The notes under the pieces are model-generated. The model made no database searches and was not told the DNA's origin. It saw only the letters and a list, made by a program, of their open reading frames with translations. From positions 90,953-154,952 of the forward strand of contig CAJWJK010000003.1 of NCBI GenBank assembly GCA_913041535.1: a stretch of 64,000 nt of DNA, written 5' to 3'. Both the position numbers and the translations under genes were made by a program. Source of the stretch: an uncultured Alphaproteobacteria bacterium (GTDB lineage: Bacteria; Pseudomonadota; Alphaproteobacteria; VGEJ01). This document shows, in pieces, positions 12,891 to 57,763 of this stretch (position 1 is its first letter; each line of letters starts with the position of its first letter).

Positions 12891-13586
12891 TTAACGAGAT
12901 GAACGCGCCCCGAAAATGGCGGTGCCTATACGCACTTCCGTTGAGCCGAAGTCAATCGCAGTTTCAAAGTCATGGCTCATTCCCATGCTAAGGCGAGGTA
13001 GACCATTGCGCCTTGCAATTTTTCTTAACAGGGCAAAATACAAAGATGGTTCTTGACCATTTGGCGGAATACACATAAGCCCCTTTACGGGTAGTTGAAA
13101 GTTCCTACAACACTCCACAATAAAGTCATCAGCCTCATTGGGAAGCACGCCACTCTTTTGCGGTTCCTCTCCTATATTAATTTGAACATAGCAGTCCGGG
13201 GATCGGCCCGAACGTTCTATCTCAATTGCTAGCGCACGAGCAACTTTCGGTCTATCGACGGTCTCTATTACGTCACCGATGGATACTGCTGCTCTAATTT
13301 TGTTTGTTTGTAGCGGGCCAATTAAGTGTAGGCGGATATCGCTATATGAAGCTTTTAGCGAGGGCCATTTAGCCTGCGCTTCTTGCACTCGGTTTTCTCC
13401 AAACGTACGCTGGCCAGCCGCCAGTGCAAGTTTAATAGGGTCTTCGCTCAATGTCTTGGTGACAGCTACTAATGTAACATCGTCATTGCGACCGGTAGCT
13501 TCAGACGCTAAACGGATGCGCGTAATTACAGACTCAAGGTTTTCAGAAATACTGGTATTGGGAGTGGTGATGAGTCTAGAGGGCAT
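12891..13586 (-). CDS. yggS: YggS family pyridoxal-phosphate homeostasis protein
   Basis: 231 aa; LVAVTKT (PLP-binding Lys) and the alanine-racemase N-terminal fold signature. Confidence 0.8.
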   Translation of the reverse strand: MPSRLITTPNTSISENLESVITRIRLASEATGRNDDVTLVAVTKTLSEDPIKLALAAGQRTFGENRVQEAQAKWPSLKASYSDIRLHLIGPLQTNKIRAAVSIGDVIETVDRPKVARALAIEIERSGRSPDCYVQINIGEEPQKSGVLPNEADDFIVECCRNFQLPVKGLMCIPPNGQEPSLYFALLRKIARRNGLPRLSMGMSHDFETAIDFGSTEVRIGTAIFGARSSR

Positions 13587-13613
13587 AGTGGCCGTGGCGC
13601 CGCGCTCGGCAAT

Positions 13614-14228
13614 ATGGTAGCTGATAATGCCATGTTAGCAGATCTTGCTTATCATCTCAATTTAGTATGCCCATTGGATCAAGCTAAGAAGCTTCCCTCA
13701 GCAATTTTTCTTACTGATGATCGTCGGACACCTAATCCAGGTATGGTGTTGCCTACGTTACCACGAGGCAGTGCAGTAATTCTGCGTAACTACTGTGACA
13801 AAAACAGAGCCAGCCATGCTTTTTCTCTTAGGAAAATTTGTCGTCACTATGGGCTTCTTTTTTTAATTTCTGGCGATCCTGCATTGGCTATCAAGACGGG
13901 AGCGGATGGTGTTCACTTGCCTGAATGGTATCTGCGCAGGGGGGTTCTTTACCCCAGACGTCTAAATTGGTTGGTTACAGTTGCGGCTCACAGCAAAGCA
14001 AGTCTGACTCTAGCAGCAAGAGTAAGAGCAGATGCTGCGCTATTATCTCCAGTGTTCCCAACAGACAGTCACAAAGGAGAGAGCACACTAGGTGTGGTAA
14101 AGTTCGCCGCTCTGGTGAGATCAAGTCCTGTACCGGTTTACGCCTTAGGTGGTGTCGATTCACTCACGGCTCGTCGCTTAGCCTCTAGCGGTGCAGTCGG
14201 AGTGGCGGCCATAAAAGGATTGTGCTAG
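13614..14228 (+). CDS. thiamine-phosphate synthase-like protein (ThiE/TenI family)
   Basis: GADGVHLPEW and C-terminal VYALGGVDSLTARRLASSGAVGVAAIKGL, typical of ThiE-fold proteins. Confidence 0.55.
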   Translation: MVADNAMLADLAYHLNLVCPLDQAKKLPSAIFLTDDRRTPNPGMVLPTLPRGSAVILRNYCDKNRASHAFSLRKICRHYGLLFLISGDPALAIKTGADGVHLPEWYLRRGVLYPRRLNWLVTVAAHSKASLTLAARVRADAALLSPVFPTDSHKGESTLGVVKFAALVRSSPVPVYALGGVDSLTARRLASSGAVGVAAIKGLC

Positions 14229-14252
14229 ACGTTCGATAACTTGTGGGCACCA

Positions 14253-15920
14253 CTATTTATCATGCAGTACAAAGTGGTGCTCTATGTGTTCGATAAGTTT
14301 CTGAGCACACTCATCAACGCTGCTATCCGAAGTATCGATTGTAAGCTCTGGGTCCTTGGGAACTTCGTAAGGTGCAGAGATTCCGGTAAATTCTGGTATT
14401 TCACCGGCGCGGGCCTTCTTATAAAGGCCCTTGGGGTCTCGTTTTTCACAAGCTTCTAGGTCGGCTTTTACATATACCTCATGAAATCCGTCAGGTAGCG
14501 CGGTTCGTGCCCTTTCGCGATCAGATCTATATGGTGAAATGAAAGCTGTAATGGTTATAAAACCTGCACCCGCGAACAATGCACCGACCTCGCCAACACG
14601 CCTAATATTCTCGGCCCTATCCTCTGGAGAAAACCCTAGGTTTGAGTTCAGACCGTGTCGAACATTGTCTCCATCAAGAACATATGCTTGGTAGCCAGCA
14701 GCAAATAAACGTTTTTCCACTTCGATAGCGATAGTTGATTTGCCAGCGCCAGAAAGTCCCGTTAGCCACAAAACTCCACCTCGATGGCCATTGCGCTTGG
14801 CTCGGTGTTTATCTGTAACTGAGTGCTCCACACGTACTACATTCGTGGAGCGCACTGTGATCAAATCACGCTGGTCCGCGTAACCCCGCATATTAATTTG
14901 GCCAGCGCCTATAAAGTTTTCACCATCATTTAAAATAAGGCTTCCTGTCGGCTTGCAGATTTCGAATGGGTCCAACGCAATTATTTCGGATGCGCGGATG
15001 GTTGCGTCGAAAATATTGTCCAGGCCAATATCATCGGTGACACGTTCTACAGACTGAATGCTAACTGGAATTACGTGACCAAACCGATAGAAACTGTACC
15101 CAGTGTCAACATTTAATACCTCGCTGCTAAACCCGGCAATGCGAGCACGAAACACATCAGTTTCGAGAGGCGGATTATCAACATGACTAGCAAGTTCGGC
15201 ATTACCAAACTCAAGATCTGAATCAAGTGTAATAGTGACCTCACGCCCAGCTTCTGCGCTGTTTAAGCTTTCATTTTCGTCTATGGCATTAAGAGCAACG
15301 ACACGCGCTGTTTGGTTGGATGGAGAGAACAGTAGAGTGTCTCCCATTTCGATGAGTCCCGTGAGAATATGGCCTGAATATAGTGATTTGTCGGATTCCG
15401 TTCGGCGAATGGGCATGCGTAATGGTACGTCAATAGGGAAGTCTGCCAATTGGATATGCCGAAGTGTAGCTGTTAATTCTGGTCCATCAAACCAAGCAGG
15501 TGGTTCTAATCCACGAGACCCTATAGCCACCGCGGTAACTTTAGGCCAGCCAAGCAGCGCTGATTTAGATTTGATTGTTGAGAAGGCTTCTTCGGCTTTA
15601 TGTGTATCTTTTAGCCCCGTCACTACAATAATCAGTTCATTTATGCCACAAAGGGTAAGTAGAAAGGCATGTTGAAGGCATAGCTGGTCCAGGCCATGAT
15701 TATCATCTGTAGCCAAGATTGCAGTGCTAAGTCCAGCAACTCGGTCCGTTAACCGTTTGGTAAAACCTTCGACTCCAGCATGATCTAATACAGAAATTGT
15801 CTGTTCATTAGATTCAAACTGAAAACTTTGTTCAGTGTCTGAAATGCTAGGATATAAACTTGTAGCAAGGCGATCACTACTCCGTTTATGGCCAGCAATA
15901 ACTAGTTCTAACTTTGCCAT
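14253..15920 (-). CDS. cysC: CysN-like pseudo-GTPase domain fused to adenylylsulfate (APS) kinase CysC
   Basis: C-terminal ~190 aa is a canonical APS kinase ([14 protein letters not shown]...[11 protein letters not shown]...FISPYR). The N-terminal ~370 aa aligns to CysN/EF-Tu domains I-III, but every GTPase motif is degenerate: no P-loop, DTPGH replaced by DHAGV, NKMD replaced by GLKD. Confidence 0.8.
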
Positions 15921-16074
15921 TTAATCTGAATTCACCCTATTATTTTCAATTCATATGCATTGTGACGAGTGAGAGCTTAGCCAATCAGCCGTTTCTCACT
16001 TACGATTGATAATCTAAGGTAATCAATATTCCAACATACTCATAGTTACAACACTTTGATCCTCAAAACATATT

Positions 16075-16902
16075 TTATGGAAGATAATTAAAGCGATCCA
16101 TTTGGTCGCCATGTGCCGCAACGATTTTGTCAATTTGTGATCGAGATAGGTGGCTGCGCCATTGATCTGCTTCACCGGATCGGAAAAATGCATTTGACAT
16201 CGGACTGCGTTCACGAAACCCCTGGCTTTGTTCCTGCTTCTGTAATACATCAAACGAAGAAAAATTTATTGCTTTTGACAGTCTGCTTGATGAGCAATGA
16301 AGGCCAAGAAAATGAACCATGTTCCCAAAGTAAACCTTGGGAGATTCATATAAATCTTCGTATCGGACAACGTATAGAGATTCATTGGCATCTTGTGTCC
16401 AACTCTTGACGTGTTGACTCCAAGTGCCCAGCGTAATCGGAATATTTCTCGGATCTTCTGGGGCGCCAGCAGTGGCGTTGGCAAGAAGGTCAATTGTTGT
16501 ATCGACATCAAGGCCTGAGTGGTGTGACATAGAAAGCACAACGTCCATTGGGTTTCGAAGTATATATATGGCACCTGAAGTGCAATCCATAGTTATTGCT
16601 GGGGTTCCATGTTGTTCAGTAAGTGGGCTATGTGTTTTAACAAATACTGAGTCGGAGTTTGCGGTTGACATAAGTTGGTGAACGCGAGGCCGGATTTGAG
16701 CGAGCTGGTATTGATCCATGCCGTCGACTGGGCCACCTGCCACTTTGCCATACCAGTCTTTTCGGCCATCCCCCATCGTAACTTTATCCAGCTCATTAAT
16801 GCTTGCTGCGGTAGCAGAGTTGAAAAATAAGTTATGAATGAAAGCCCGTAGCCAAGTGTTCCCGGATTTTGGGTACGAGGCGATCCAAATGATTCCGCTC
16901 AT
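16075..16902 (-). CDS. sulfotransferase (Sulfotransfer_1-like, PAPS-dependent)
   Basis: 5'-PSB motif IASYPKSGNTWLRAF and 3'-PB motif RNPMDVVLSMSHH. The start was moved to the internal Met just upstream of the PSB motif. Confidence 0.75.
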   Translation of the reverse strand: MSGIIWIASYPKSGNTWLRAFIHNLFFNSATAASINELDKVTMGDGRKDWYGKVAGGPVDGMDQYQLAQIRPRVHQLMSTANSDSVFVKTHSPLTEQHGTPAITMDCTSGAIYILRNPMDVVLSMSHHSGLDVDTTIDLLANATAGAPEDPRNIPITLGTWSQHVKSWTQDANESLYVVRYEDLYESPKVYFGNMVHFLGLHCSSSRLSKAINFSSFDVLQKQEQSQGFRERSPMSNAFFRSGEADQWRSHLSRSQIDKIVAAHGDQMDRFNYLP

Positions 16903-16961
16903 TAAAATCACATCAGCTGAAAATAATAAGGTTTGGTAGTAGGTCTTCGTGGGGTTTGGCA

Positions 16962-16994
16962 AACGTAAAAGGGGCGGACCGAAGCCCGCCCCTT
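16962..16994 (-). terminator. rho-independent terminator downstream of the porin gene
   Basis: Minus-strand GGGGCGGGCTTCGGTCCGCCCC (7-bp GC stem, 8-nt loop) followed by TTTTACGTTT, 25 nt after the porin stop. Confidence 0.6.
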
Positions 16995-17017
16995 CACAAG
17001 CGTTATGAATTTTACTG

Positions 17018-18175
17018 CTAGAAGAACACCGCCGTGCCGACAAACACAGCACTTACATCATTCTCATTTGCAGCAGCTCTGGCATTATCAGTCATAGTGA
17101 TATTCTGGAGACCAAATGCGAATTGGACACCAGGACCGACGTCATAGGTACCACCGATCTCAAATGCTTCTATTTCATCTGAGCCAGCACCGGCACCAGC
17201 TTCAACATCCATCTCTACGTACTGTACACCGAAGCCCCATGGGCCTGTTGAATAACGCGCGCCAACCGACCAGTTGGTACGATCAAAGTCACCCACGACA
17301 CCGGTTCCAGTGAAACCGCCGTCATTAGACTGACGATAAGCAGCACCAACAGTAATGTTGTTCACGCTTGCCCTCAAACCAGTGGAGAAAGCCTCAAGAT
17401 CATCAGATCCAGCCGCTCCAGTAGTTGTGCTAGGTGCCTCAGGTTCACCCTGGGTATAACCGAATGACATCGCAAGATCGACATCACCAACAGTGCTGAC
17501 GTAGTTCATGCCAACATCCCAAAGAGTATCCGAGCCAGCATTGTTCTCTGCAGGCGGCCCACCAATGGAGCCAAGACCGAAGAGACCGTTACAGTTTGCT
17601 GTTGCAGCCTGGCAATTTTCCGGCGTGTAGGATACCCCAAGCTGGAAACCACCCATGCGCGGCGTGAAGACCGTGATCTTCTCTGCATCACCTGAAGTGG
17701 TCAAGTAGGTTGAGGTGTATGCCAAAGTCGAGTTGCCGCCAGGTGCCGTAAATGTAAAGACAGGAGACTCAAAACCCCATCCAAACATAGAAGGCGTTGG
17801 TGACTGATAGTGCATTGTATTGGAAGCACTGTTCCGCGCACCCATTTGAACACGAAAATCAGCAAATTCCATCCAAATGTAACTGTCTTCGATATGGTCT
17901 GTGTTGTTCTCAGCTTTGATATCAAAGGCTGCACCGACCTGGAGACCGTTATCAAACGTTGAGTTACCGCTGAAACCAATTATGCCCCAACGACTAAAAA
18001 CGTGATCACGAGTATTGGCTGCGGGCTCGCCGACAGCATCATCTCCTGATACCAAGCCGACGTTAAAGATGTACCAGCCTCCAACACCCAATTTCACGGG
18101 ATCATTGGCCATCGCAGGGCCGGCTACTGCGCCAGCCGCTATGAGAGCCGTAGTACCGTATAGGTATTTCTTCAT
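17018..18175 (-). CDS. outer-membrane porin (alphaproteobacterial general porin family)
   Basis: Signal peptide MKKYLYGTTALIAAGAVAGPAMA, a Gly/aromatic-rich beta-strand alternation, and a C-terminal ...VFVGTAVFF ending in Phe. Confidence 0.7.
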   Translation of the reverse strand: MKKYLYGTTALIAAGAVAGPAMANDPVKLGVGGWYIFNVGLVSGDDAVGEPAANTRDHVFSRWGIIGFSGNSTFDNGLQVGAAFDIKAENNTDHIEDSYIWMEFADFRVQMGARNSASNTMHYQSPTPSMFGWGFESPVFTFTAPGGNSTLAYTSTYLTTSGDAEKITVFTPRMGGFQLGVSYTPENCQAATANCNGLFGLGSIGGPPAENNAGSDTLWDVGMNYVSTVGDVDLAMSFGYTQGEPEAPSTTTGAAGSDDLEAFSTGLRASVNNITVGAAYRQSNDGGFTGTGVVGDFDRTNWSVGARYSTGPWGFGVQYVEMDVEAGAGAGSDEIEAFEIGGTYDVGPGVQFAFGLQNITMTDNARAAANENDVSAVFVGTAVFF

Positions 18176-18357
18176 CCTAACCTCACTTACAGACGCACAA
18201 AGACCCGAGCATGCCGGGCGCGCCCCTTTTAATGATGGCCTATTCAGCCAGTACAGGGGCGGACCGTCAAGCTAGGCGACTCCCGACTGTGTCGAAATTC
18301 GGTCACTGTTGCTAGATTGACACAGCAGTATGCATTCTGGTTCAAAAAACGGCGGTT

Positions 18358-20163
18358 CTACAGGTCACTTTCCAACGCTGACCGCAGTGGAGCTAGTTCT
18401 CCACTGTAGAGTTTTGCCCGTCCGACCTCGCGACGACAGCGATCTAGCTCCTGTGCTAACGAGAGAGAGTTCTGATGGTTTGGCCTTTCGAGACATGTTT
18501 TGTCCCATTTTAGTCCGCAAAAGGAAACTATTTCTTGGCTAATGGTTTCAAAGTCATGTAACAACTCTTCATAACTAATATTGAGTGTATTCAAGCCTAA
18601 GGTGATGCCCCAGTGCTTCATTAGACGTTGATATTGGGCTAGTTCGCTACCGATATTTGCGAGGCTTGCACTGTAAGTGAGGCCGTCCTGATCGAAATCC
18701 CTGAAGTAGGTGAACAAACCGCAGTCCAACGGGTCGCGAATGCAGCGTATAACTCGCGCGTTTGGAAATAAACCGGAAATCAGCCCAAGATATAGATAGT
18801 TGTTTAATGAATCATCTACGATCCTTTCAGCGTCACGGGCGGGGCCTCCTACCCTAGTAAGGTATTCTTGTGCCAGTTGAGTAGCCGTGGTTGCTGATAG
18901 ATCTCGTACGCAGTGAGGGTAGGGATTTATACTTCCAAGTGTATCCTGCAGGGATAGCGCGACCTGTTGAAGATTTGCAAAATTACTTCCGCTACGTACA
19001 CCAGGGTAGCTGGTTAATACTTCTTTGATGAGGTTGGACCCTGATTCGGGCATGCTAACCAAAAATATCAATAAGTCGGATTCGACCTCTGCGCGCGGAA
19101 GTGTTTGTAAATGCGTTCGGTCAAAAACCTCCATAGAATCAGTTACAAATTGTTGCTGGGCTTCGCGGTCATAAGCGACATCAGCTAGCTGATTGCCGAT
19201 CTTTGCATGATCGAATGCCTCAGTATGATAATCACGCTGGTCATACAATCGTGCGAGTCCAAGATGAAGAGATCTTGAAACATCTCGTGAGAGGTCGGGC
19301 TCTACGAGAATGCTCTCAATTCTTCTGCAGTTGGCCTCAGTTGGGGCTTGTACTGCCATAAGATAAGCAAGCATTGCAGATACAGTATTGCTATCGCTTT
19401 GCTGTTGGGCCCGATACTTCAGCAGCTGTATAGCAAGGTCAAGGTATCCACGGTAATACAGTGTAAGCGCTGCACGGCACAGCTCGTCCACTTGGCAATG
19501 TGGAGTTGACGACATTTGTTTGAAAATCGCTAGGGATTGACTGGCGTTACCACTATCCAGTAAGGCATGTCCGTAGGGAGCGAGTAAGCTGTTAGTCACA
19601 TCTTGGTTGCCTAATGACAGTGCTTTTTCGTAAGCAGTGATAGCCTCGTCCAAATGTCCCAGCCGATGCGTAACTATGGCAAGACCTGCATAGGGTTCAG
19701 CATTGTGCCGATCTATGTCGATAAGTAGCTGGTAGGTATCCCTCGCTTCGTCGAATCTGTTTGTCTCTCTCAATGCAACGGCGAGGTTGTTCGCAATATG
19801 TGGATTTCTAGCATCCAGTTCGAGGGCATCTCTGAAGGCATCGATTGCACTGGGTATCTGTTTTGTAGCAATTAACACGTTTCCAAGTTTGAAAAGATTT
19901 GCAGCATTTCGAGGGTCAAGCTCTAAAGCTTGATGTAGGCTTGTTTCGGCATCGGATAAACGGCCGATAGAGTGCAATACCAAAGCCCGATTTGAGTGAT
20001 ATCGTGCTTCGTTGGGCCGAAAAGATATCGCTTTAGCGATGCGTTCCAGAGCTGCGGCATGATCGCCTTGTTGGTAAGCTACAACACCCCACAGGTGCCA
20101 TGCATCGGGTTGGTCTGGGTCATTAACCACAACTTTTTCATATAGTTGGCTTGCCTGTTCCAA
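18358..20163 (-). CDS. TPR-repeat protein with C-terminal sulfotransferase domain (Sulfotransfer_3-like)
   Basis: N-terminal ~300 aa of TPR repeats; C-terminal FLVSMPESGSNLIKEVLTSYPGV (PSB-like) and IRCIRDPLDCGLFTYF (RDPxD...S 3'-PB). Confidence 0.7.
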   Translation of the reverse strand: MEQASQLYEKVVVNDPDQPDAWHLWGVVAYQQGDHAAALERIAKAISFRPNEARYHSNRALVLHSIGRLSDAETSLHQALELDPRNAANLFKLGNVLIATKQIPSAIDAFRDALELDARNPHIANNLAVALRETNRFDEARDTYQLLIDIDRHNAEPYAGLAIVTHRLGHLDEAITAYEKALSLGNQDVTNSLLAPYGHALLDSGNASQSLAIFKQMSSTPHCQVDELCRAALTLYYRGYLDLAIQLLKYRAQQQSDSNTVSAMLAYLMAVQAPTEANCRRIESILVEPDLSRDVSRSLHLGLARLYDQRDYHTEAFDHAKIGNQLADVAYDREAQQQFVTDSMEVFDRTHLQTLPRAEVESDLLIFLVSMPESGSNLIKEVLTSYPGVRSGSNFANLQQVALSLQDTLGSINPYPHCVRDLSATTATQLAQEYLTRVGGPARDAERIVDDSLNNYLYLGLISGLFPNARVIRCIRDPLDCGLFTYFRDFDQDGLTYSASLANIGSELAQYQRLMKHWGITLGLNTLNISYEELLHDFETISQEIVSFCGLKWDKTCLERPNHQNSLSLAQELDRCRREVGRAKLYSGELAPLRSALESDL

Positions 20164-20357
20164 ATTCCCGGAACGGTGTGCCTTGTTTGCGGTAGCGAGA
20201 ATATTGCTGTTGTCTATGTTACTGCTCCATTTCTTTCAACTTGTTGTGAGCAACATGAAGTTTGTTATGGTGCTGCGGCACTAATAATATACCCTAAATA
20301 CGAGTATAGGCGGGCCAATTTGTTTAGGGCGCGTCCAACTGCACGAGAGGGAACGTT

Positions 20358-20882
20358 ATGAAGTGGTGGCTCCTACCTGTATGCTGCCTTAGTTTGCTGC
20401 TTAATGCTTGTGGTTTGCCAACGGAGGCAATATTCCCAGAACGCCGAGGCGCAACTTATGATCCAAGACCGACAGAGGAGCAAGAGTCGATTTTTGGGCC
20501 AGGTGGGCTTGGTTTGTTTGGCGATGACGAGGAGGGTTCGCCGGGCAGTGGCGGGGGCATAGGTGTTAATAGCTATTTGTGGCGAGCATCCTTAGATACG
20601 CTTGCCTTTATGCCTCTTACCTCGGCAGATCCGTTTGGGGGTGTGATAATCACTGATTGGTATGCGCCCCCCGCGACACCAAACGAACGTTTTAAATTGA
20701 CTGTTTTTATTCTGGATCGGCAGCTAAGCGCTAATGCCATCCGTGTATCAGTCTTTCGGCAGGAGCGTAGGGGTACGGACTGGGTGGATGCCGTGGTTCG
20801 AGATGAGACCATAACTGGTGTTGAAGATGCAATACTTACTGGTGCCCGACAGTTGCGCATAAAAACAATCGGTGGCTCCTAA
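20358..20882 (+). CDS. lipoprotein of unknown function (DUF3576-like, conserved upstream of leuS)
   Basis: Lipobox LLLNAC within the signal peptide MKWWLLPVCCLSLLLNACG. Confidence 0.5.
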   Translation: MKWWLLPVCCLSLLLNACGLPTEAIFPERRGATYDPRPTEEQESIFGPGGLGLFGDDEEGSPGSGGGIGVNSYLWRASLDTLAFMPLTSADPFGGVIITDWYAPPATPNERFKLTVFILDRQLSANAIRVSVFRQERRGTDWVDAVVRDETITGVEDAILTGARQLRIKTIGGS

Positions 20883-49002: not shown

Positions 49003-50879
49003 GATTCTATTTGTGGTGCCACAGATGTACGTACGAAATGACCCTCGCCAAGATCCAGCATACTTAGTGATTGGGTTCCGTCTATAGTATAGGGTGTAGG
49101 CCAATCGGCTGGGTTAGAGGCTTTGCCCGACATCAATCCGGTAAGATCAAGAGGGTCATCTGGGTCGGGCTTTGGGACGGCCGAAAGAAGTGCACGTGTA
49201 TAGGGGTGAATGGGGTTCTGAAATAATACTTCTCTTGGCGCAAGCTCGACCAAACATCCGGAGCACATGACAGCTATCCGATCGGCAATATAGTCAACTA
49301 CAGCTAGATTGTGTGATATGAAGATATAGGTCAGGGTGAGATTCGTCTGCAGCTCTTTGAGAAGATTTAGGACCTGCGCTTGCACGGACACATCAAGAGC
49401 TGATACTGGTTCATCGCAGATTAATAGTTCTGGCTGGAGTGCAAGAGCTCGGGCAATTCCTATCCGCTGACGTTGACCCCCTGAGAAACTATGGGGATAG
49501 CGTCGTCGATGTCTTACATTGAGGCCCACCAACTCCATTAACTCCGTTACGCGCTGAGCTCGGAAAGTTTCGTCACCTATTTTGTGGATAATCAGGGGTT
49601 CATTAATTATATCAAAAACAGTCATGCGGGGGTTAAGTGAGCTGAATGGGTCTTGGAAGATGTATTGGACACTTCGACGAAAATTCCATAGTTCCTTACC
49701 CTGCAATTTTAGTACGTCGATCATGTGTCCATTATCGTTAAATAGAACCTCGCCTGAATCGGCTGATAAAGCGCGCATTAAGATTTTGCTCGTTGTAGTC
49801 TTGCCACAACCTGACTCGCCCACAAGGCCAAGACAGGAGCCTCGTGGCACTTCAAAGCTAACATTATCTACAGCAATAGTGGCATCGTTGGTCTTTTTGC
49901 TAAAAAAAGAGCGTTTCCGGCCATCGAATGACTTGCTTAAGTTGCGGACGCTCAACAAAGGGCCTGCTTTGATCGCTTCGTTGCTCCAAGGTTTACTTTC
50001 TGTATGTAGGAGCTCTCCTTTACTTTTAATTTCTCGAATTGGTATGAGTCTTTCTTCTGGTTTCATGTTGAACCGAGGGACAGCAGACAATAACGCGGTC
50101 AGATATGGGTGTTGGGGATCGTGAAAAATATCGTGCAAAGAGCCATGCTCCATAACTTTGCCATGATACATAACCACGACTTCATCTGCCATGTTGGCAA
50201 CGACTCCCAGATCATGAGTGATCATCAGAATTGCCATTTGGAGCTCGCGCTGCAAGTCATTCATGAGCTTTAGAATCTGAGCTTGGATCGTCACGTCCAA
50301 TGCAGTTGTTGGTTCATCGGCAATCAAGAGAGCGGGGTTGCAGATTAGAGCCATTGCAATCATTGCTCGTTGGCGCAGCCCGCCCGAAAGCTCAAACGGA
50401 TAAGATTGTAGCGCGCTACGGGGGCTAGGGAAGCCAACTAAACGAAGCATATCTTCTGCGACATCAAGCCCTTTTTTTCGGTTTGCAACACGATGTAAAT
50501 GAAAAGCTTCTGTAATTTGGTTTCCAATAGTATGAAGTGGTGAGAGAGACGTCATCGGCTCTTGGAAGATGATAGAGATGCGCCCACCTCGCAAAGCTTG
50601 CATGTCTTTGCTATCTGGTGGCAGATTGCAGATATCAATTACAGGGCCATCCGTTGTGGGGTCACAGAAATCGATAGTGCCTTCAGCAATATGCGCTACT
50701 TTTGGTAAAATACCCATAATGGCTTGAGATACCACCGATTTTCCCGAGCCAGATTCGCCCACCAGTGCCACTGTTTTTCCCTGTGGAACTCTAAACGAAA
50801 CACCATCTACGGCACGAAGTATGCCATCTGGTAGGTCAAAATGAACTTTTAGGTTGGAAATTAGTAAAACATCAGACAT
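48999..50879 (-). CDS. ABC transporter ATP-binding protein with duplicated ATPase domains (YejF-like)
   Basis: Two Walker A motifs ([16 protein letters not shown]), two LSGG signatures ([16 protein letters not shown]), and two oligopeptide C-terminal extensions. Confidence 0.85.
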
Positions 50880-51376
50880 TAACGTCTCTCCAGGGTGCCA
50901 ATAGGTGCATCTAGCGCGTAAAGATTATCTGTTGTTGTTGAATCCAATACGATACCGCGATTACGCGCTTCACGTGCGGCTGCTAGTGCAATATCTTCAA
51001 AACCCTCTAATGAAGAGTCTAATTTAATTTGCCTTGTTCGTGGGCCCATTAGGCTAAGCTGCATCCATCCGTTCCTTCGATCACGGCGAGTTGTGTAATA
51101 TCGGAGGCGAACTCGCTCGAGTCTACACCAATCAAGCTCGGCACGAAAAAGCCCAGTGCTTTCGACTCCAGAGCTAGTTAACGCCACTGTTGTTATTTGG
51201 CGGAGAACAGTGCGTATAGCAAAGACGGTGAAAAGCAATGCTAAGAATAAAAGAATGTATGCAGTTATTGTAAATATGTCTGTTATGATTAAAGGGCCAG
51301 CCGTTAGTGACAGGCCCACACCAGCGCGAAGATAATCAAGTATCAAAGATTTGATAGGGTATCGGTGTTGAGTCAT
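50879..51376 (-). CDS. hypothetical membrane protein (2 TM + cytosolic domain)
   Basis: 165 aa; translationally coupled on both sides (4-nt and 1-nt overlaps). Confidence 0.4.
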   Translation of the reverse strand: MTQHRYPIKSLILDYLRAGVGLSLTAGPLIITDIFTITAYILLFLALLFTVFAIRTVLRQITTVALTSSGVESTGLFRAELDWCRLERVRLRYYTTRRDRRNGWMQLSLMGPRTRQIKLDSSLEGFEDIALAAAREARNRGIVLDSTTTDNLYALDAPIGTLERR

Positions 51377-52137
51377 GTCTCAACGCTAAAGATTTTGTCT
51401 GGGTGTGGCCAGATAGTGCTTTGTTCGACTGTAAGAACAGTCAGAAGTGAGTCTAAAAACTTCCAACTCGGTTCATCCATTACCAGATGATGTGTAAGCA
51501 GACCAGTTGGCTCGTTCTGGTCAACGATTCCCATTCGCCGATTAGATAAGTGCTGAACAAGGATGTGTACGCATGAATCAATTCCACGAAAATGGGGTTC
51601 TGGTTGCCAATTTAGAATGTCTACATGCACGTTGGTCTGCTGTACGCCCGTCGAAACCTCATTGATCTCTCGCGCGCCAAGAGTTGAGAGGCCGCGTACA
51701 CCTAGAGAATATAAGTGAGGGTATAGGTCGGGATTCATCCGATTCCAGGGAGGGACAAGAACTGGCAACGCAATATTGCCAAACAGAGTATCCATGGTTT
51801 CAGAACTACGTTCAATCTCCGCCAACACTTCGAATGATGGGCGATGTGAACCCCATTCAATTTTGCGTTCTCCGACGGGTGCATAATTCCGATGCAAGAA
51901 TCCATGCGTCGCTACTCTAGTTTCCGGATAAATTGATAGGTATTCAGTTAGGCGTGGGTCCGCTAGTTTTGGAATAGCAGCCAGGCATGGCGCAATATTG
52001 TGTCGCGTGACTAGATCAAAAAGGCGGTCAAGCGCAGCGGTTGGTGTCTGCACATCATCGTCACGCAACCACATGCTAGGTTGTCGGCCAACCCGTTTCC
52101 ACGCGTCAAGTTCTTGAACCAGGGCGGACCAACTCAT
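51373..52137 (-). CDS. divergent polysaccharide deacetylase (NodB-like) family protein
   Basis: WLRDDD (motif 1-like) and VATHGFLHRNY (HxxxH motif 2). Confidence 0.4.
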   Translation of the reverse strand: MSWSALVQELDAWKRVGRQPSMWLRDDDVQTPTAALDRLFDLVTRHNIAPCLAAIPKLADPRLTEYLSIYPETRVATHGFLHRNYAPVGERKIEWGSHRPSFEVLAEIERSSETMDTLFGNIALPVLVPPWNRMNPDLYPHLYSLGVRGLSTLGAREINEVSTGVQQTNVHVDILNWQPEPHFRGIDSCVHILVQHLSNRRMGIVDQNEPTGLLTHHLVMDEPSWKFLDSLLTVLTVEQSTIWPHPDKIFSVET

Positions 52138-53291
52138 TTGGGAGCACACTCCGCCCAGTCCTGAACCAACGATACGGTGGTTGCGAGCCCTGAAGTATTT
52201 AAACTGAAAGCGCAATTAGGAGTAGCGTCCATTGCATCTCGTATAGCTGATGCGAGAGATGTGGGGTTGAGGCTTGATTCTGGGACCATTTTCACAAACC
52301 CACGTTTAGCAAGTCGCGCCGTGCGGATTGTTTGTTCAGTTTCCGTTCCCTGCGAGAAAGGAACAATTACGCAACGAGCTTTGGAAACGAGAGCCTCACA
52401 CGTAGTGTTGTAGCCACCTTGACTAATTGAGAGGGCACAATGGTTTAGCAATTTTGGAAAGTCAGTACGGGCACGTTCAACAATTAGGTTTTCGTCGGAT
52501 GATTTCTGCAGAGCCTGAAAGGAGCTTTCAGACACCCCTGTTCCGACCAATACCCGCCAGAGATTGTCTTTAAGAACTGTCGATTTTCGCGCTAAAATGG
52601 CTGTTTCAAGTAGACTCAGCCCCACAGCACCGCCCCCAGCGGAAACAATTACTTCGCCTTGTGCGTGGTGGGTTTTTTCTGCCGCAGCTTGTGTCGGATC
52701 AACTGTGTACCCTGTGTAGACAAGTTGGCTCGCTATTTTATCGGCATTTACAAAGGTTTCATTAAAGGTGATGAATTTGGGATCGCCGTGGATAAGCACA
52801 TAGTCGAAGTATGATTTTATAAGTTCTACAGTTTCGTTGTTACGAATAGGGGTGCGACTGCCGCTTAGAATATCACGGACTGAAGATACGACGATAGTCC
52901 GGTGTCCACTGGATTTCACCAAATCCAATAGTGGAAGTAATTCAAACTTCATTTGACGGCGCCCAAATGGGAAAAGTTCAAGGATTACAACATCAGGCTT
53001 ATGGTTTTTCCAAACCTCCAGGAGGTGGTTGCATCTTGATCTGCGCCACGAATCATTAACTGGCTGGTTATTCATATCCACTAGAGTCGTGAAATTGTGA
53101 TCAATGGTTCGAACTGGAGATAATTGCACGAAACGGCTTGACCCAAGGTCAAGGTGGGGTAATGGCTCGCCTCCCGAAACAAGAATAACATCAAGACCGA
53201 CTTTGCTTAAGTTGCGGCTGATTAGGGCAGCCCTGTGTAGATGGCCAATGCCTAATAGGTGTTGAACGTAGAAGAGCACCTTCTTAGCCAT
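52134..53291 (-). CDS. glycosyltransferase, GT1/MurG-like fold (GxGHxxR family)
   Basis: N-terminus LFYVQHLLGIGHLHRAALISRNL; paralogous to the GT at 56367..57620. Confidence 0.55.
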   Translation of the reverse strand: MAKKVLFYVQHLLGIGHLHRAALISRNLSKVGLDVILVSGGEPLPHLDLGSSRFVQLSPVRTIDHNFTTLVDMNNQPVNDSWRRSRCNHLLEVWKNHKPDVVILELFPFGRRQMKFELLPLLDLVKSSGHRTIVVSSVRDILSGSRTPIRNNETVELIKSYFDYVLIHGDPKFITFNETFVNADKIASQLVYTGYTVDPTQAAAEKTHHAQGEVIVSAGGGAVGLSLLETAILARKSTVLKDNLWRVLVGTGVSESSFQALQKSSDENLIVERARTDFPKLLNHCALSISQGGYNTTCEALVSKARCVIVPFSQGTETEQTIRTARLAKRGFVKMVPESSLNPTSLASAIRDAMDATPNCAFSLNTSGLATTVSLVQDWAECAPK

Positions 53292-53918
53292 TTAGTCTTC
53301 ACTATCTTCAGAGTTGTAGGGATGAGCTCTGGCAGTCAGCAAGGGTACATTTAGACACTCTATCTGTGGGTGGCCGTCGGTGTTTAGAGCGAATAGGTGG
53401 AGTGAGTGCCAATCTAGTTTGAAAGGGGGGGCACCGGTAAGGTCCCAGTTTAAAGCAAGACTAAGTAATGCACGGATTACTCCTTTATGTGTTATGGCTA
53501 GAGTCGTTTCTCGTGCGGCTGCAACTTCTTTCAAGAAAGGTCTTAAGCGATCCTGAACTTCACGTGGACTCTCTCCTTCAGGGGGTTTTAGGTCGAGGCC
53601 TCGTTCCTCAGCTGCAACGAACTCTGTTCCTAGTTCCTGTCGGAGGTTTGCTATGGTTTCCCCTTCCCACAGCCCCCAGTCCATTTCTATAAGACGTATA
53701 TCAGTTTCGAATGAACAAACGTTGAGACAACGAGCAGTCTCAACAGCTCGGACAAGGGGGCTTGTCCTACAACGGACGCCAGAAAAGGTATTCGGAAGCT
53801 GCAATTTAGATAATTCCTGGCGAGCATCACTAGTAATGGAAACATCGGCTCTACCTTGTAGCCGTCTTTGAATGTTCCAATCGGTTTGGCCATGGCGGAA
53901 AAGGGCTAGTGTTGTCAT
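53292..53918 (-). CDS. histidine phosphatase family protein (phosphoglycerate-mutase-like)
   Basis: LFRHGQTDWN catalytic RHG motif. Confidence 0.75.
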   Translation of the reverse strand: MTTLALFRHGQTDWNIQRRLQGRADVSITSDARQELSKLQLPNTFSGVRCRTSPLVRAVETARCLNVCSFETDIRLIEMDWGLWEGETIANLRQELGTEFVAAEERGLDLKPPEGESPREVQDRLRPFLKEVAAARETTLAITHKGVIRALLSLALNWDLTGAPPFKLDWHSLHLFALNTDGHPQIECLNVPLLTARAHPYNSEDSED

Positions 53919-55078
53919 GGTTGGGGCTTTCGAGAAAAGGCACGCACTGTACTCAAAATACGATGCAGTCCCTGAGCTGCATTGCGGATCCCTCGCTCTG
54001 TGTGCACAAAGTGAGCACCTTGGTTTCCCATGCTTTCACGTCGTTTCTTATCTTTGAGAAGTTGCAACATTAAGTTCGCAAAACCCTCGATGTCTCCTTC
54101 GGGCGATAGGAGGCCGCTTTCATGGTCTTGGACTACATCAGGCACACCGCGGACGCGAGCGCTGACTATAGGGAGACCGGCTGCTTGTGCCTCAAGAAAG
54201 GATAAACCGTAGGCCTCGTTAACGGCTGGCCACACATAAATATCGCAGGCCGCGTAGATCAATGCCAGGTCTTCCTGTGGTAGTTTGCCGAGAAAGATTA
54301 TACGTTGATCAGGGAATTCTGAGAACGCCTCCTCAACACTCGTTCGAGCTTCCCCATCTCCAACTATGAGATGTTGCCAGTCTTCATCCAGCATTTTTCT
54401 GAGTGCCGAGGCAAGAAGCTGATATGAGGCAAGTTTGTCCCCATATCGCAGCATTCCAACCGATAACAGCCACGGCTTGTTTAATGAACATCGAAATTTT
54501 TCGTTCAAAGTCCTGCGGGCCTTCACGCGCTGTTTCCTTGTCTCTGTGAAGGGCGCGGTATCGATAAAAGGGGGAAGGTAATGGACGTGATCGCCACAAA
54601 TATTTTGATTTCGTAGAGACTGCAGGTCATGTCGGGTTAGACAGATAATAGCATCAGCTATTGTTATCGCTTTCTGTGTAGCTTCGTGACCAATTATCCA
54701 CGGGGTCGATGCACGTTTTGATGCTAGTGATGCTTCTGCAATAACGTATGGTATACCCAACTTTTGGCTTAACCGAGGACCAAGCCAATCCGGCGCGCGA
54801 TAATAGACGTGATATGTCAGCCATAATTCTGGCCTTTGATTTGGATGAAGTGATGAAAAATGTTCTTCTAGAAGAATTGCTTCTAGCTCCGCGGCTTGGC
54901 AGATTTTTTCTTGCTTGGAACCATTCGCAGAACGGTCATAGCTTCTGAATTCAGAGACAACATTAACTTCATGCCCAATAGAGTTCAGTGCGCCGATCAG
55001 CAATCGTGCCATTTGGCGATCGCCAGAGGGCGTGGGGTGGTATGGGGATTTAAGCGGCGCGTAGAAAACGATGCGCAT
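53915..55078 (-). CDS. glycosyltransferase family 4
   Basis: GT4 C-terminal EX7E-type region (…EAYGLSFLEAQAAGLPIV…). Confidence 0.75.
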   Translation of the reverse strand: MRIVFYAPLKSPYHPTPSGDRQMARLLIGALNSIGHEVNVVSEFRSYDRSANGSKQEKICQAAELEAILLEEHFSSLHPNQRPELWLTYHVYYRAPDWLGPRLSQKLGIPYVIAEASLASKRASTPWIIGHEATQKAITIADAIICLTRHDLQSLRNQNICGDHVHYLPPFIDTAPFTETRKQRVKARRTLNEKFRCSLNKPWLLSVGMLRYGDKLASYQLLASALRKMLDEDWQHLIVGDGEARTSVEEAFSEFPDQRIIFLGKLPQEDLALIYAACDIYVWPAVNEAYGLSFLEAQAAGLPIVSARVRGVPDVVQDHESGLLSPEGDIEGFANLMLQLLKDKKRRESMGNQGAHFVHTERGIRNAAQGLHRILSTVRAFSRKPQP

Positions 55079-55104
55079 GTCTGAGATAAGACCTAAGAGC
55101 TACA

Positions 55105-56361
55105 CTATGTTGTGATGCCTATAGAGGCTGTATTATGTCTAGGCAACCCAAATAGTTTAGCGATACCGTCAATTTTTTCATCCATGTGGAATTGCGCTCG
55201 AATTAGCTGTTCTCCTGCTCGTCCCATGTCTAGCCGTAGTTGCGGTTCTAGCATTAGGCGTGTCAGCGCTTGGTGCAGTGCCAGAGGGTTATTTGGAGGA
55301 ACTAATAGCCCATTAATGCCATCTTCTATCAGTTCTGGTATTGCGCCCGCAGTTGTTGCTACGCATGGAACAGACTGACTTTGCGCTTCAACTAGGACGT
55401 TTGGCAGCCCATCACGGTCTCCGTCGGCACCAATGCAGCTGGCTAATACAAATATATCTGCATCACGGTAGGCAGCTAGCACTGCATCGTGTGCAAGTGG
55501 TCCTCGCCAATCAATCTGTTTGCTAATGCCCAGGGAATGCGCCTGGTGTTTGAGCTGTTTGTCGAGAGGGCCGGCACCTATATGCACCAGCCGCCAGTGT
55601 AAGGTCTTGGGAATCTTTGCTAGTGCATCTAGTAGTATCGAATGTCCCTTTTTTTCCACTGTTCTCCCGATTGAAAGCAAAATTAGAGGATCGTTCCGGC
55701 TGCCGTGCTTTCTGGCTTTTGGAAGATGCGGGTTTGTCGAGAAGTATGAGAGGTCTATTCCGTGATAGTTGAGGTGTACACTTTCCGAAGATCCTAGACT
55801 CTTAAGGTGGGTATGTATGGATTGGTTGCAGGTCGACAACCAAGAGCACGACGCAATCTTTTCCAGTTTCTCCCAGACGGGAATTGTCCATACATCTTTA
55901 GCATGTGCCGAACAGCTCCAAGGCAACTCATTAAGTATGCTCGCATAGCGGGTCACTGATGCTGGAGTATGAAGAAAGTGAGCATGAAGCTGATCAACAT
56001 TTGAATCTAGTTCATGAGCTAGTATTAGAGCTTGACCAAAACGCCGAAGACGGCTTGAGGTAAAATCCCGCCATAAGTCACGCAGCCAGGCTCTCTGTGC
56101 TGTTTTGTACGTAGTACGATTGTGAAGAGCAGCCCAGGCTCGGACTAAGCGCAGAGGTTCTTTATGAAGATATTCGGGTAGATAGTAGATAGGGGCCTTA
56201 ATATCGCTATGAATCATGTGAGTGTATTGGTCAGTTGGTTGGCGCAGTGAATATATGCTGATGAAAAGTCCACGGCGCTCAAGCGCTCGTATTTCCTGTG
56301 CTATAAATGTTTCTGACAAGCGGGGGTAGCCTTTTAGGACAAAGGCAACGTGGCGACTCAT
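55105..56361 (-). CDS. glycosyltransferase family 4 (WcaL/colanic-acid-type)
   Basis: N-terminus VLKGYPRLSETFIAQEI is typical of WcaL-like GT4 enzymes; the C-terminus carries GLPNVLVEAQSQSVPCV. Confidence 0.7.
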   Translation of the reverse strand: MSRHVAFVLKGYPRLSETFIAQEIRALERRGLFISIYSLRQPTDQYTHMIHSDIKAPIYYLPEYLHKEPLRLVRAWAALHNRTTYKTAQRAWLRDLWRDFTSSRLRRFGQALILAHELDSNVDQLHAHFLHTPASVTRYASILNELPWSCSAHAKDVWTIPVWEKLEKIASCSWLSTCNQSIHTHLKSLGSSESVHLNYHGIDLSYFSTNPHLPKARKHGSRNDPLILLSIGRTVEKKGHSILLDALAKIPKTLHWRLVHIGAGPLDKQLKHQAHSLGISKQIDWRGPLAHDAVLAAYRDADIFVLASCIGADGDRDGLPNVLVEAQSQSVPCVATTAGAIPELIEDGINGLLVPPNNPLALHQALTRLMLEPQLRLDMGRAGEQLIRAQFHMDEKIDGIAKLFGLPRHNTASIGITT

Positions 56362-56366
56362 CTCAG

Positions 56367-57620: not shown

Positions 57621-57763
57621 CGGCAGATAATGGCACGAGAGAGAGCAACGAAAAAGTGACTTTTTTTATCCCCGTTTACCACTGATTTAACCTAAGTTAA
57701 GCTCTTGGCAGTGTAACTTGTTTTCTTCCAGTACAGTGGGCCCCTCAGTGGATAGAGAGTTTA

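What the first reader, a model, noticed from the sequence alone, without database searches (positions are those of the whole stretch)
14253..15920. APS kinase fused to a full-length CysN homolog whose GTPase motifs are all degenerate
The N-terminal 370 aa align colinearly with CysN/EF-Tu domains I-III (e.g. [39 protein letters not shown]...IIVVTGLKD against FSTEKRKFIIADTPGHEQY...VVAINKMD). The P-loop is absent, DTPGH is replaced by DHAGV, and NKMD is replaced by GLKD, so GTP binding and hydrolysis should be lost. The fused CysC domain is fully canonical. No cysD or sat gene is in the locus. The dead-GTPase domain may be a scaffold or regulatory module that channels PAPS to the two neighbouring sulfotransferases.
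Basis: seen in the sequence. Interest (0 to 1): 0.7.

Follow-up and report, generated by a model that had tools for sequence, protein, structure and literature searches.

The report
APS kinase with relic dead-GTPase domain
This gene encodes an intact APS kinase (it makes PAPS, the cell's sulfate donor) still fused to a decayed, GTPase-dead remnant of its former partner domain CysN; the remnant decayed in a marine alphaproteobacterial lineage where the catalytic partner gene cysD next door was replaced by sulfotransferase genes.

Summary
The ORF at 14253-15920 (-), 555 aa, is real. Its C-terminal part is a canonical APS kinase. Its N-terminal ~345 aa are homologous to CysN/aEF1A in sequence and predicted fold, but they are not full-length. 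The end of the P-loop plus switch I (~40 aa) and the G5 loop are deleted, the Walker lysine is Asp, and NKMD aligns to TGLK. Only a bare DxxG survives (DHAGV). No frameshift can restore the motifs.

Context explains the state of the gene. The closest canonical CysNC sits in the same slot (LeuRS-DUF3576-...-cysD-cysNC-TenI-YggS). Across 50 loci, 22/22 motif-intact genes have cysD directly upstream and 0/27 degenerate ones do. Degenerate genes carry a PAPS-type sulfotransferase there instead.

At equal kinase divergence, the CysN-like part evolves far faster than in canonical proteins (G-domain identity 21% vs 71%). It is still under some purifying selection (dN/dS ~0.3), and other lineages have whittled it further.

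Best reading: a working APS kinase that feeds the adjacent sulfotransferases and carries a relic pseudo-GTPase. The source of its substrate APS is unresolved, because the rest of the genome could not be searched. I class it as a new variant of CysNC/NodQ, of moderate interest.

The parts
14253..15920 (-). Whole gene: degenerate-CysN/CysC fusion ('CysN*C'), 555 aa
   Evidence: ORF. The identical protein occurs on 6-7 metagenome contigs. An in-frame TAA lies immediately upstream of the ATG, and the other two frames are full of stops.
15441..15920 (-). G-domain-like remnant (residues 1-160): alpha/beta core kept, nucleotide-binding loops lost
   Evidence: Alignment A1. AF2 model shows strand-helix alternation with pLDDT ~75-90. 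Pfam GTP_EFTU scores only 19.4 bits, below the gathering cutoff of 26.5. dN/dS is 0.29-0.33.
15870..15893 (-). Remnant of the P-loop (G1): GHKRSSDR in place of GHVDHGKS. Walker Lys is Asp; the ~40 residues that follow in canonical CysN (switch I/G2) are deleted.
15771..15785 (-). G3/switch II remnant: DHAGV in place of DxPGH. DxxG is kept; the catalytic His is Val.
   Evidence: HMMER alignment to 1zun_B; A1
15606..15620 (-). G4 remnant: TGLKD, with TGLK aligning to NKMD. The guanine-specificity motif is lost.
14886..15440 (-). EF-Tu-type beta-barrel domains II and III (residues 161-345). This is the best-kept part of the CysN-like region (PLR, FSPSN, ASH..PxETDVF, ALDPF motifs).
   Evidence: Invariant columns in A1, A2 and A3. 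AF2 beta-strands 168-343. dN/dS 0.20-0.28. Retained in every variant seen.
14787..14885 (-). Inter-domain linker / N-terminal segment of the CysC module (residues 346-378). Highly conserved in sequence, predicted disordered.
   Evidence: 85% identity within the sub-clade. pLDDT below 50 for 352-378. The stand-alone CysC model PRK03846 aligns from residue 357. The equivalent linker is disordered in M. tuberculosis CysC crystals (PMC4373884).
14253..14786 (-). APS kinase (CysC) catalytic domain with stop codon (residues 379-555). Walker A GLSGAGKS is at 14736-14759.
   Evidence: PF01583 E=3e-66 and TIGR00455 256 bits. 50-60% similar to solved APS kinases. All catalytic-motif columns are invariant in A1. 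dN/dS 0.09-0.18.
16075..16902 (-). PAPS-dependent sulfotransferase (Sulfotransfer_1, 275-aa form), directly upstream in the position cysD occupies in canonical loci
   Evidence: PF00685 E=2e-27. PDB relatives are Teg12/Teg14/StaL/SULTs. The sequence has 5'-PSB PKSGNTW and 3'-PB RNPMDVVLS. A homolog lies directly upstream of the degenerate gene in 20 loci.
17018..18175 (-). Porin_4 outer-membrane porin gene embedded between the two sulfotransferase genes
   Evidence: PF13609 E=2e-36. Conserved at this position in most loci of the clade.
18358..20163 (-). TPR-repeat protein with a C-terminal Sulfotransfer_3 domain (second sulfotransferase of the cluster)
   Evidence: TPR families plus PF13469 E=3.5e-23. 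Conserved upstream in the clade.

Best explanation
The gene is the positional ortholog of a cysNC (NodQ-type) gene in an uncultured marine alphaproteobacterial lineage. In that lineage the cysD gene that normally abuts cysNC was replaced by sulfotransferase genes.

CysD is the catalytic ATP-sulfurylase subunit whose activity CysN's GTP hydrolysis drives. With no adjacent cysD, selection on the GTPase function of CysN collapsed. The P-loop lysine, switch I, NKxD and G5 were lost, so the N-terminal domain can no longer bind or hydrolyse GTP (inferred from sequence).

The C-terminal CysC module stayed under strong purifying selection. It is expected to phosphorylate APS to PAPS on its own, as the isolated M. 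tuberculosis CysC domain does. The PAPS would be consumed by the co-located SULT-type and TPR-type sulfotransferases (inferred from gene order and motifs).

The remaining EF-Tu-like fold is kept as a relic, probably a folding or structural appendage of the kinase, under weak purifying selection. It consists of a stripped G-domain core plus beta-barrel domains II and III. In other lineages of the same clade it is being eroded further.

The substrate APS must come from an ATP sulfurylase or another route encoded outside the window. This was not determined.
For: - Homology and fold: TIGR02034 E=7e-28, 1zun_B E=6e-18, Foldseek 1zun_B 1.7e-25.
- Motif loss and deletions: alignment A1 and motif scoring.
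- Control: canonical P0007 passes the CysN model at 366.5 against a cutoff of 336.1; the window protein scores 97.7.
- No frameshift rescue: single-frame colinear tblastn alignment, stops in the other frames.
- Positional orthology: L011 reads LeuRS-DUF3576-x-cysD-cysNC-TenI-YggS-YkuD-GCHII-RR. The window and relatives read LeuRS-DUF3576-TPR_ST-porin-ST-CysN*C-TenI-YggS-YkuD-GCHII.
- Association across 50 loci: 22/22 motif-intact genes have cysD 5-114 nt upstream. 0/27 degenerate genes (12 clusters at 80% identity) have cysD anywhere in the locus, and 20 have a Sulfotransfer_1 homolog directly upstream.
- Relaxed constraint: at ~70% kinase identity, canonical pairs keep 71% (G domain) and 60% (domains II-III) identity, while degenerate pairs keep 21% and 34%.
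- Residual constraint: dN/dS 0.29-0.33 (G-like), 0.20-0.28 (II-III), 0.09-0.18 (kinase).
- Decay series: 606 aa, then 555-586, then ~495, then ~425 aa.
- Kinase autonomy: the isolated M. tuberculosis CysC domain is an active dimer (PMC4373884).
- CysN's contacts with CysD adjoin switch I/II (PMC5770160). Those are the regions deleted or mutated here.
Against: - The G-like remnant and domains II-III are not evolving neutrally (dN/dS well below 1) and stay as an intact, confidently folding ORF across deep divergence. They may therefore have a function beyond structural relic.
- Absence of cysD/sat is shown only for the 64-kb window and for +/-6-10 kb around relatives, not genome-wide. The contig-length fingerprint test was inconclusive (17/112 recall).
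- No biochemical data exist. GTPase loss and kinase activity are inferred from motifs.
- The loci are not phylogenetically independent, and the tree supporting a single degenerate clade is a crude NJ tree prone to long-branch effects.
Confidence: 0.68

Rival explanations
1. Exapted scaffold. The dead CysN-like domain, especially beta-barrel domains II-III, has been re-used to dock the sulfotransferase whose gene replaced cysD (or the TPR sulfotransferase). This would form a complex that hands PAPS directly to the transferase. It is the first reader's idea.
For: - Purifying selection on the N-part, dN/dS 0.2-0.3.
- The sulfotransferase gene occupies exactly the former cysD position and is paired with the degenerate gene in about 11 lineages, with gaps as small as 3-25 nt.
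- Domains II-III are retained in every variant, including those that lost nearly all of the G-like part.
Against: - Gene adjacency is already explained by a producer-consumer relation for PAPS without physical docking.
- Domains II-III diverge much faster than in canonical CysNC (34% vs 60% identity at equal kinase divergence). That is not expected for a newly acquired specific interface.
- No interaction evidence of any kind.
Confidence: 0.17
2. Still a CysD partner. An unlinked cysD exists elsewhere in the genome. The degenerate CysN-like domain still binds it through domains II-III, giving a GTP-independent sulfurylase/kinase complex that is pulled forward by channelling APS into the fused kinase.
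For: - Conservation of canonical CysN domain II-III motifs.
- A representative protein (P0278) appears to fuse CysD directly to domains II-III plus CysC without any G domain. That hints these domains suffice to couple CysD to CysC.
- Genome-wide absence of cysD was not shown.
Against: - No cysD in 27 degenerate loci, against 22/22 in canonical ones.
- The switch regions that adjoin the CysD contact surface are deleted or mutated.
- Strongly accelerated evolution of the whole N-part.
- P0278 has a truncated kinase match and may be a fragment or chimera.
Confidence: 0.1
3. Non-functional gene or artefact: a pseudogene in decay, or a sequencing/assembly frameshift that hides intact GTPase motifs.
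For: Large internal deletions and loss of motifs could suggest decay.
Against: - The identical ORF is present on independent assemblies from Tara, JGI and ENA.
- Intact orthologs exist in 11-12 lineages.
- Kinase dN/dS is ~0.1.
- No remnant of the missing segment in any frame.
Confidence: 0.02

Closest known systems
Bifunctional CysNC / NodQ (e.g. M. tuberculosis Rv1286, S. meliloti NodQ; CysN of the P. syringae CysD-CysN structure 1ZUN)
   Same: - Same domain order: EF1A-like three-domain module, then linker, then APS kinase.
- 43-47% overall identity to alphaproteobacterial CysNC.
- Same chromosomal slot as the closest canonical relative.
- Like NodQ and M. tuberculosis CysNC, it is linked to a sulfation (PAPS-consuming) pathway.
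   Different: - P-loop lysine, switch I, NKxD and G5 are lost.
- ~75 residues shorter.
- No adjacent cysD/nodP; a sulfotransferase gene sits in its place.
- The CysN-like part evolves about three times faster.
- Fails the CysN (TIGR02034) and GTP_EFTU model thresholds.
Stand-alone APS kinase CysC (PF01583 / TIGR00455 / PRK03846)
   Same: The C-terminal ~200 residues match full-length CysC models above their cutoffs, and all catalytic motifs are present. This is probably the protein's only enzymatic activity.
   Different: Carries a 345-residue N-terminal EF1A-fold appendage that stand-alone CysC lacks.
Fungal ATP sulfurylase with a C-terminal catalytically inactive APS-kinase-like domain (P. 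chrysogenum 1I2D/1M8P). That this domain is allosteric is from my own knowledge; the entries appear as weaker kinase-domain hits.
   Same: A sulfate-activation fusion protein in which one of two ancestral catalytic modules has become a non-catalytic domain while the other stays active.
   Different: Mirror image: there the kinase module is dead and serves as a PAPS-binding allosteric regulator of a live Sat-type sulfurylase. Here the GTPase module is dead and the kinase is live. No regulatory role is shown here.
Pseudo-GTPases in general (G-domain folds that have lost nucleotide binding; concept from my own knowledge)
   Same: G-domain core retained while the G1-G5 motifs are lost.
   Different: I found no published report of one derived from CysN or the EF1A/translational GTPase branch in sulfur metabolism. 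The library is open-access only.

Membership tests
APS kinase (CysC; PF01583, TIGR00455) | Profile score above curated cutoff | tested here: met
   PF01583 222.5 bits (cutoff 21.1); TIGR00455 256.4 (138.7); PRK03846 269.8 (163)
APS kinase (CysC; PF01583, TIGR00455) | Walker A GxxGxGKS plus the conserved LDGDNxR, FISPY and DPKGLYK motifs | tested here: met
   GLSGAGKS at 388-395. All these columns are invariant across 14 canonical and degenerate sequences in A1.
APS kinase (CysC; PF01583, TIGR00455) | Catalyses APS + ATP -> PAPS + ADP | not testable with these tools
   Needs an enzyme assay. Supported indirectly by dN/dS ~0.1 and by the activity of the isolated M. tuberculosis CysC domain (PMC4373884).
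CysN (sulfate adenylyltransferase subunit 1; TIGR02034) / translational GTPase | Profile score above curated cutoff | tested here: not met
   TIGR02034 97.7 against 336.1; PRK05124 79.8 against 590; Pfam GTP_EFTU 19.4 against 26.5. Control P0007 scores 366.5 on TIGR02034.
CysN (sulfate adenylyltransferase subunit 1; TIGR02034) / translational GTPase | G1 P-loop GxxxxGK[ST] | tested here: not met
   GHKRSSDR. No Walker A in residues 1-380.
CysN (sulfate adenylyltransferase subunit 1; TIGR02034) / translational GTPase | G2 / switch I (RGITI Thr) | tested here: not met
   ~40-residue deletion covering this segment. No remnant in any frame.
CysN (sulfate adenylyltransferase subunit 1; TIGR02034) / translational GTPase | G3 DxPGH (DxxG plus catalytic His) | tested here: not met
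   DHAGV: DxxG retained, His replaced by Val. Relatives have DHADR, DHAGH or EGAGE.
CysN (sulfate adenylyltransferase subunit 1; TIGR02034) / translational GTPase | G4 [NT]KxD and G5 SAx | tested here: not met
   NKMD aligns to TGLK. The G5 SAxxGDN loop is deleted.
CysN (sulfate adenylyltransferase subunit 1; TIGR02034) / translational GTPase | Three-domain EF-Tu/EF1A fold (G domain plus two beta-barrels) | tested here: met
   AF2 model with N-part pLDDT ~75-90. Foldseek: aEF1A about 1e-26, 1zun_B 1.7e-25, TM (target) 0.6-0.7.
CysN (sulfate adenylyltransferase subunit 1; TIGR02034) / translational GTPase | Partner gene cysD adjacent or present | tested here: not met
   No cysD in the 64-kb window or in any of 27 degenerate loci, against 22/22 canonical loci. 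Genome-wide presence could not be tested.
Bifunctional CysNC / NodQ (PRK05506) | Profile score above curated cutoff | tested here: inconclusive
   345 against a cutoff of 715. The bona fide canonical relative P0007 also misses it (632), so this cutoff does not discriminate here.
Bifunctional CysNC / NodQ (PRK05506) | CysN-like module N-terminal to CysC in one polypeptide, descended from cysNC | tested here: met
   Colinear alignment to canonical residues 73-619. Shared synteny with L011.
Bifunctional CysNC / NodQ (PRK05506) | GTP-dependent activation of sulfate adenylylation | not testable with these tools
   Predicted absent from motif loss. Needs GTP-binding, GTPase and sulfurylase assays.

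The most novel reading that the evidence does not exclude
After cysD was replaced by a sulfotransferase gene, the GTPase-dead CysN remnant (chiefly beta-barrel domains II-III) was exapted as a docking platform for that sulfotransferase. The result would be a dedicated 'sulfation complex' in which the fused kinase hands PAPS directly to the transferase: a pseudo-GTPase re-purposed from energy coupling to substrate channelling.
Probability: 0.15. Interest if true: 0.7.

Novelty: new variant of a known kind. Interest (0 to 1): 0.45.

Why it matters
1. Annotation. These proteins are labelled 'bifunctional CysN/CysC' (COG2895/K00955) in JGI and Tara annotations. Metabolic reconstructions will therefore credit these marine alphaproteobacteria with a GTP-driven ATP sulfurylase that this gene almost certainly cannot provide.

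2. Evolution. This is a clean natural experiment on partner-dependent constraint. Across 50 loci, intact GTPase motifs coincide perfectly with an adjacent cysD. The decay series from 650 aa to 425 aa shows the order in which an orphaned G protein falls apart: nucleotide loops first, then the G core, with beta-barrels II-III kept in every variant seen.

3. Biology. It marks a conserved, uncharacterised sulfation module (two sulfotransferases, usually a porin, and a dedicated PAPS supply) in ocean bacteria. The sulfated product and the source of APS are both unknown.

Tried and rejected
- **Genome-contig scan with P0001.** The peptide patterns were too specific.
- **Contig-length fingerprint for an unlinked cysD.** 17 of 112 canonical CysNC contigs reappeared among the top-120 CysD hits and 0 of ~8 short-clade contigs did. 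With 15% recall, P(0 of 8) is ~0.27, so the result is inconclusive.
- **Profile search with 12 degenerate N-domains (A2).** The word-index prefilter returned only 16 hits. It was useful only for unlocking the P0330 and P0415 contexts.
- **A2 for the metagenome pattern scan.** The smaller alignment A3 worked.
- **Promoter/terminator scan of 13500-20600.** Counts were equal to the shuffled expectation, so operon structure remains undetermined.
- **The 334-aa no-Pfam ORF upstream of cysD in L011.** Not a sulfotransferase (E=2). It shows only a weak C-terminal beta-strand resemblance to the porin (E=0.01).
- **Mougous et al. 2006 (the 1ZUN paper).** Not held. Interface information was taken second-hand from PMC5770160.
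- **Literature searches for degenerate, pseudo-GTPase or pseudoenzyme CysN/NodQ.** No prior description found. The library covers open-access papers only.
- **Frameshift or pseudogene explanation.** Rejected.
- **P0276, P0272 and P0393 as degenerate forms.** Dismissed as probable N-truncated gene calls of canonical proteins.
Full report
**1. The observation**

The window contains an uninterrupted 555-aa ORF at 14253-15920 on the minus strand.

- Its C-terminal third is a textbook APS kinase. PF01583 gives E=3e-66 over residues 381-529. TIGR00455 scores 256 bits against a cutoff of 139. The stand-alone CysC model PRK03846 aligns from residue 357 to 551. It matches solved APS kinases at E=1e-50 to 1e-60.
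- The N-terminal ~345 residues are homologous to CysN/aEF1A well beyond chance. TIGR02034 gives E=7e-28. The P. syringae CysN structure 1zun_B gives E=6e-18, colinear over query 35-302 = chain 99-380.
- An AlphaFold2 model folds this region confidently (pLDDT ~75-90) into an alpha/beta core followed by two beta-barrels. Foldseek returns aEF1A at ~1e-26 and 1zun_B at 1.7e-25.

**2. Motif status**

I aligned the protein with canonical alphaproteobacterial CysNC proteins (alignment A1).

| Motif | Canonical | Window protein |
|---|---|---|
| G1 (P-loop) | GHVDHGKS | GHKRSSDR (Walker Lys is Asp) |
| G2 (switch I) | RGITID region | deleted, with the ~40 residues that follow G1 |
| G3 | DAPGH | DHAGV (DxxG kept, catalytic His lost) |
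| G4 | NKMD | TGLK |
| G5 | SAxxGDN loop | deleted |

- The only Walker A motif in the protein is the kinase's.
Its G4 register is one residue off. Its central claim of a GTPase-dead CysN-like domain fused to an intact CysC holds.
- The protein fails the CysN and GTP_EFTU thresholds (97.7 against 336.1; 19.4 against 26.5). The canonical relative P0007 passes the CysN model at 366.5.
- A frameshift cannot rescue the motifs. The canonical protein aligns in one frame only (its residues 73-619), the other two frames are full of stops, a TAA immediately precedes the ATG, and no remnant of canonical residues 15-80 exists anywhere in the window.

**3. Context in the window**

Directly upstream on the same strand lie three genes:

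- a SULT/Teg12/StaL-type PAPS-dependent sulfotransferase at 16075-16902, with PKSGNTW and RNPMDVVLS PAPS-binding motifs
- a Porin_4 porin at 17018-18175
- a TPR protein with a Sulfotransfer_3 domain at 18358-20163

No cysD is present (tblastn best E=2.4). None of the window ORFs of at least 150 aa submitted to Pfam has a PAPS_reduct or ATP-sulfurylase domain.

**4. Evolutionary context, the key result**

- The homolog search found a small set of short relatives (531-586 aa, 47-61% identical) among thousands of canonical 620-650-aa CysNC proteins at 43-47% identity.
- The short forms all sit in the arrangement LeuRS-DUF3576-TPR_sulfotransferase(s)-porin-sulfotransferase-CysN*C-TenI-YggS. In the P0330 loci the porin is replaced by an AhpC/2OG-oxygenase gene.
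- The closest canonical protein, P0007, sits in the same slot, but with cysD abutting cysNC where the short forms have the sulfotransferase (L011). The window gene is therefore a positional ortholog of cysNC.
- I used the metagenome scan to enlarge the sample and classified all 50 loci held:
  - 22 genes have intact G1/G3/G4, and all 22 have cysD 5-114 nt upstream.
  - 27 genes are degenerate (12 clusters at 80% identity, one of them an independent lineage, P0062). None has cysD anywhere in the locus.
  - Of the 27, 20 have a Sulfotransfer_1 homolog directly upstream, one has another sulfotransferase, one (L050) has the porin and a TPR sulfotransferase upstream but no Sulfotransfer_1 match, one (L008, the independent P0062 lineage) has none, and four lack upstream sequence.
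- The loci are not phylogenetically independent, but the dichotomy is complete.

**5. Selection**

- At matched kinase divergence (~70% identity), canonical pairs keep 71% identity in the G domain and 60% in domains II-III. Degenerate pairs keep 21% and 34%. Constraint has relaxed over the whole CysN-like part, not only at the nucleotide loops.
- The part is still not neutral. Nei-Gojobori dN/dS among close relatives is 0.29-0.33 for the G-like remnant, 0.20-0.28 for domains II-III and 0.09-0.18 for the kinase.
- Across the wider clade there is a decay series:
  - P0062, 606 aa: GHADKGES, DVSGH, NNMD
  - some members with a residual Walker A (P0365, GPRGAGKT)
  - the window type, 555-586 aa
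  - ~495-aa forms (L046, P0266)
  - ~425-aa forms in which only ~45 residues precede domain II (L048, P0343)
- Domains II-III and the kinase are always kept.

**6. Mechanism**

- What is shown: homology, motif loss, synteny, the association with cysD loss, and the selection pattern.
- What is inferred: the N-domain no longer binds or hydrolyses GTP, the kinase makes PAPS, and the neighbouring sulfotransferases consume it.
- The kinase should be autonomous. The isolated CysC domain of M. tuberculosis CysNC is an active dimer and its inter-domain linker is disordered (PMC4373884). That matches the low-pLDDT linker 352-378 here.
- CysN's contacts with CysD adjoin switch I/II and the beta-barrels (PMC5770160). 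The switch elements are exactly what has been lost.
- The best reading is a working APS kinase dedicated to a sulfation module, carrying a relic pseudo-GTPase retained as a structural appendage.
- Rivals that remain open:
  - continued pairing with an unlinked CysD (not excluded, because whole genomes could not be searched; the contig-length fingerprint attempt had only 15% recall)
- Pseudogene and artefact readings are excluded.

**7. Comparison with what is known**

- It works like a stand-alone CysC and descends from CysNC/NodQ.
- It should not be filed as a CysN or as a bifunctional sulfate adenylyltransferase/kinase, because the defining GTPase features were tested and not met.
- The nearest conceptual parallel is the fungal ATP sulfurylase, whose APS-kinase-like domain became a non-catalytic allosteric module (own knowledge; 1I2D/1M8P appear as weaker hits). 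This case is the mirror image.
- I found no published description of a GTPase-dead CysN. The library is open-access only.

**8. Verdict**

This is a real and evolutionarily coherent feature. It is a new variant of a known kind and is moderately interesting. The practical consequence is annotation: public annotations label the window protein COG2895/K00955 and relatives such as P0121 and P0330 'bifunctional enzyme CysN/CysC', which over-predicts sulfate-activating capacity. The source of APS and the sulfated product remain open.

Noticed in passing
P0278 (representative protein; no locus held): This 618-aa protein has the architecture CysD (PAPS_reduct 25-215) - EF-Tu domain 2 - eEF1A_C - APS kinase (partial, profile positions 2-96 of 152). 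That is CysD fused directly to CysN domains II-III and CysC with the G domain missing altogether. It could be a real fusion, which would bear on what domains II-III do, or a fragment or chimera.
   Followed up: partly
window 17018-18175 (-); also L005, L006, L012-L016, L041: A Porin_4 outer-membrane porin gene is conserved between the two sulfotransferase genes in most loci of the clade. In the P0330 lineage (L018/L019) an AhpC-TSA/2OG-Fe(II) oxygenase gene takes its place. Why a porin belongs to a cytoplasmic sulfation cluster is unexplained. It might be a substrate, an exporter of the sulfated product, or a sulfate or organosulfate entry route.
   Followed up: no
L008 10001-11821 (P0062; P0145 on a 5.58-Mb contig): An apparently independent, less advanced degenerate CysNC of 606 aa (GHADKGES, partial switch I deletion, DVSGH, NNMD). 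It nests among canonical sequences in the NJ tree. It has no adjacent cysD or sulfotransferase and lies next to polysaccharide-synthesis genes (Polysacc_synt, Acetyltransf_6, ATP-grasp).
   Followed up: partly
L046 2153-3661; L048 428-1867; P0266, P0343: Further-eroded members of the clade (~495 and ~425 aa). The G-like remnant shrinks to ~130 and ~45 residues, while domains II-III and the kinase persist.
   Followed up: partly
P0001 annotation; P0121, P0330: Public annotations call these proteins 'bifunctional enzyme CysN/CysC' (COG2895/K00955) or just 'adenylyl-sulfate kinase'. The former is likely a propagating over-annotation.
   Followed up: yes
L013 1-4843; L014 16900-18258; L016 5359-7677; L017 3805-7338: IS/transposase genes (DDE_Tnp_1, IS66, IS1595, Transposase_mut, IS21) are inserted in or beside the sulfotransferase cluster in several relatives. 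In L017 one splits the porin gene. The region is apparently recombination-prone.
   Followed up: no
window 50879-60415: A glycosyltransferase cluster: two GT1 genes, two Glyco_tran_28_C genes, a histidine phosphatase, two ORFs without Pfam hits at 50879-52215, and an ABC exporter with transmembrane domain at 57764-60415. It may make a glycoconjugate. Any link to the sulfotransferases is speculative.
   Followed up: no
L009 1553-2476: A Rhodospirillaceae MAG encodes a stand-alone CysC 66% identical to the window's kinase module, next to a glycosyltransferase gene and without any CysN-like part.
   Followed up: no
L011 5986-6990: In the canonical locus, the 334-aa ORF between DUF3576 and cysD has no Pfam hit. 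It shows only a weak C-terminal beta-strand similarity to the window's porin (E=0.01), so it may be a divergent outer-membrane beta-barrel occupying the same position.
   Followed up: partly
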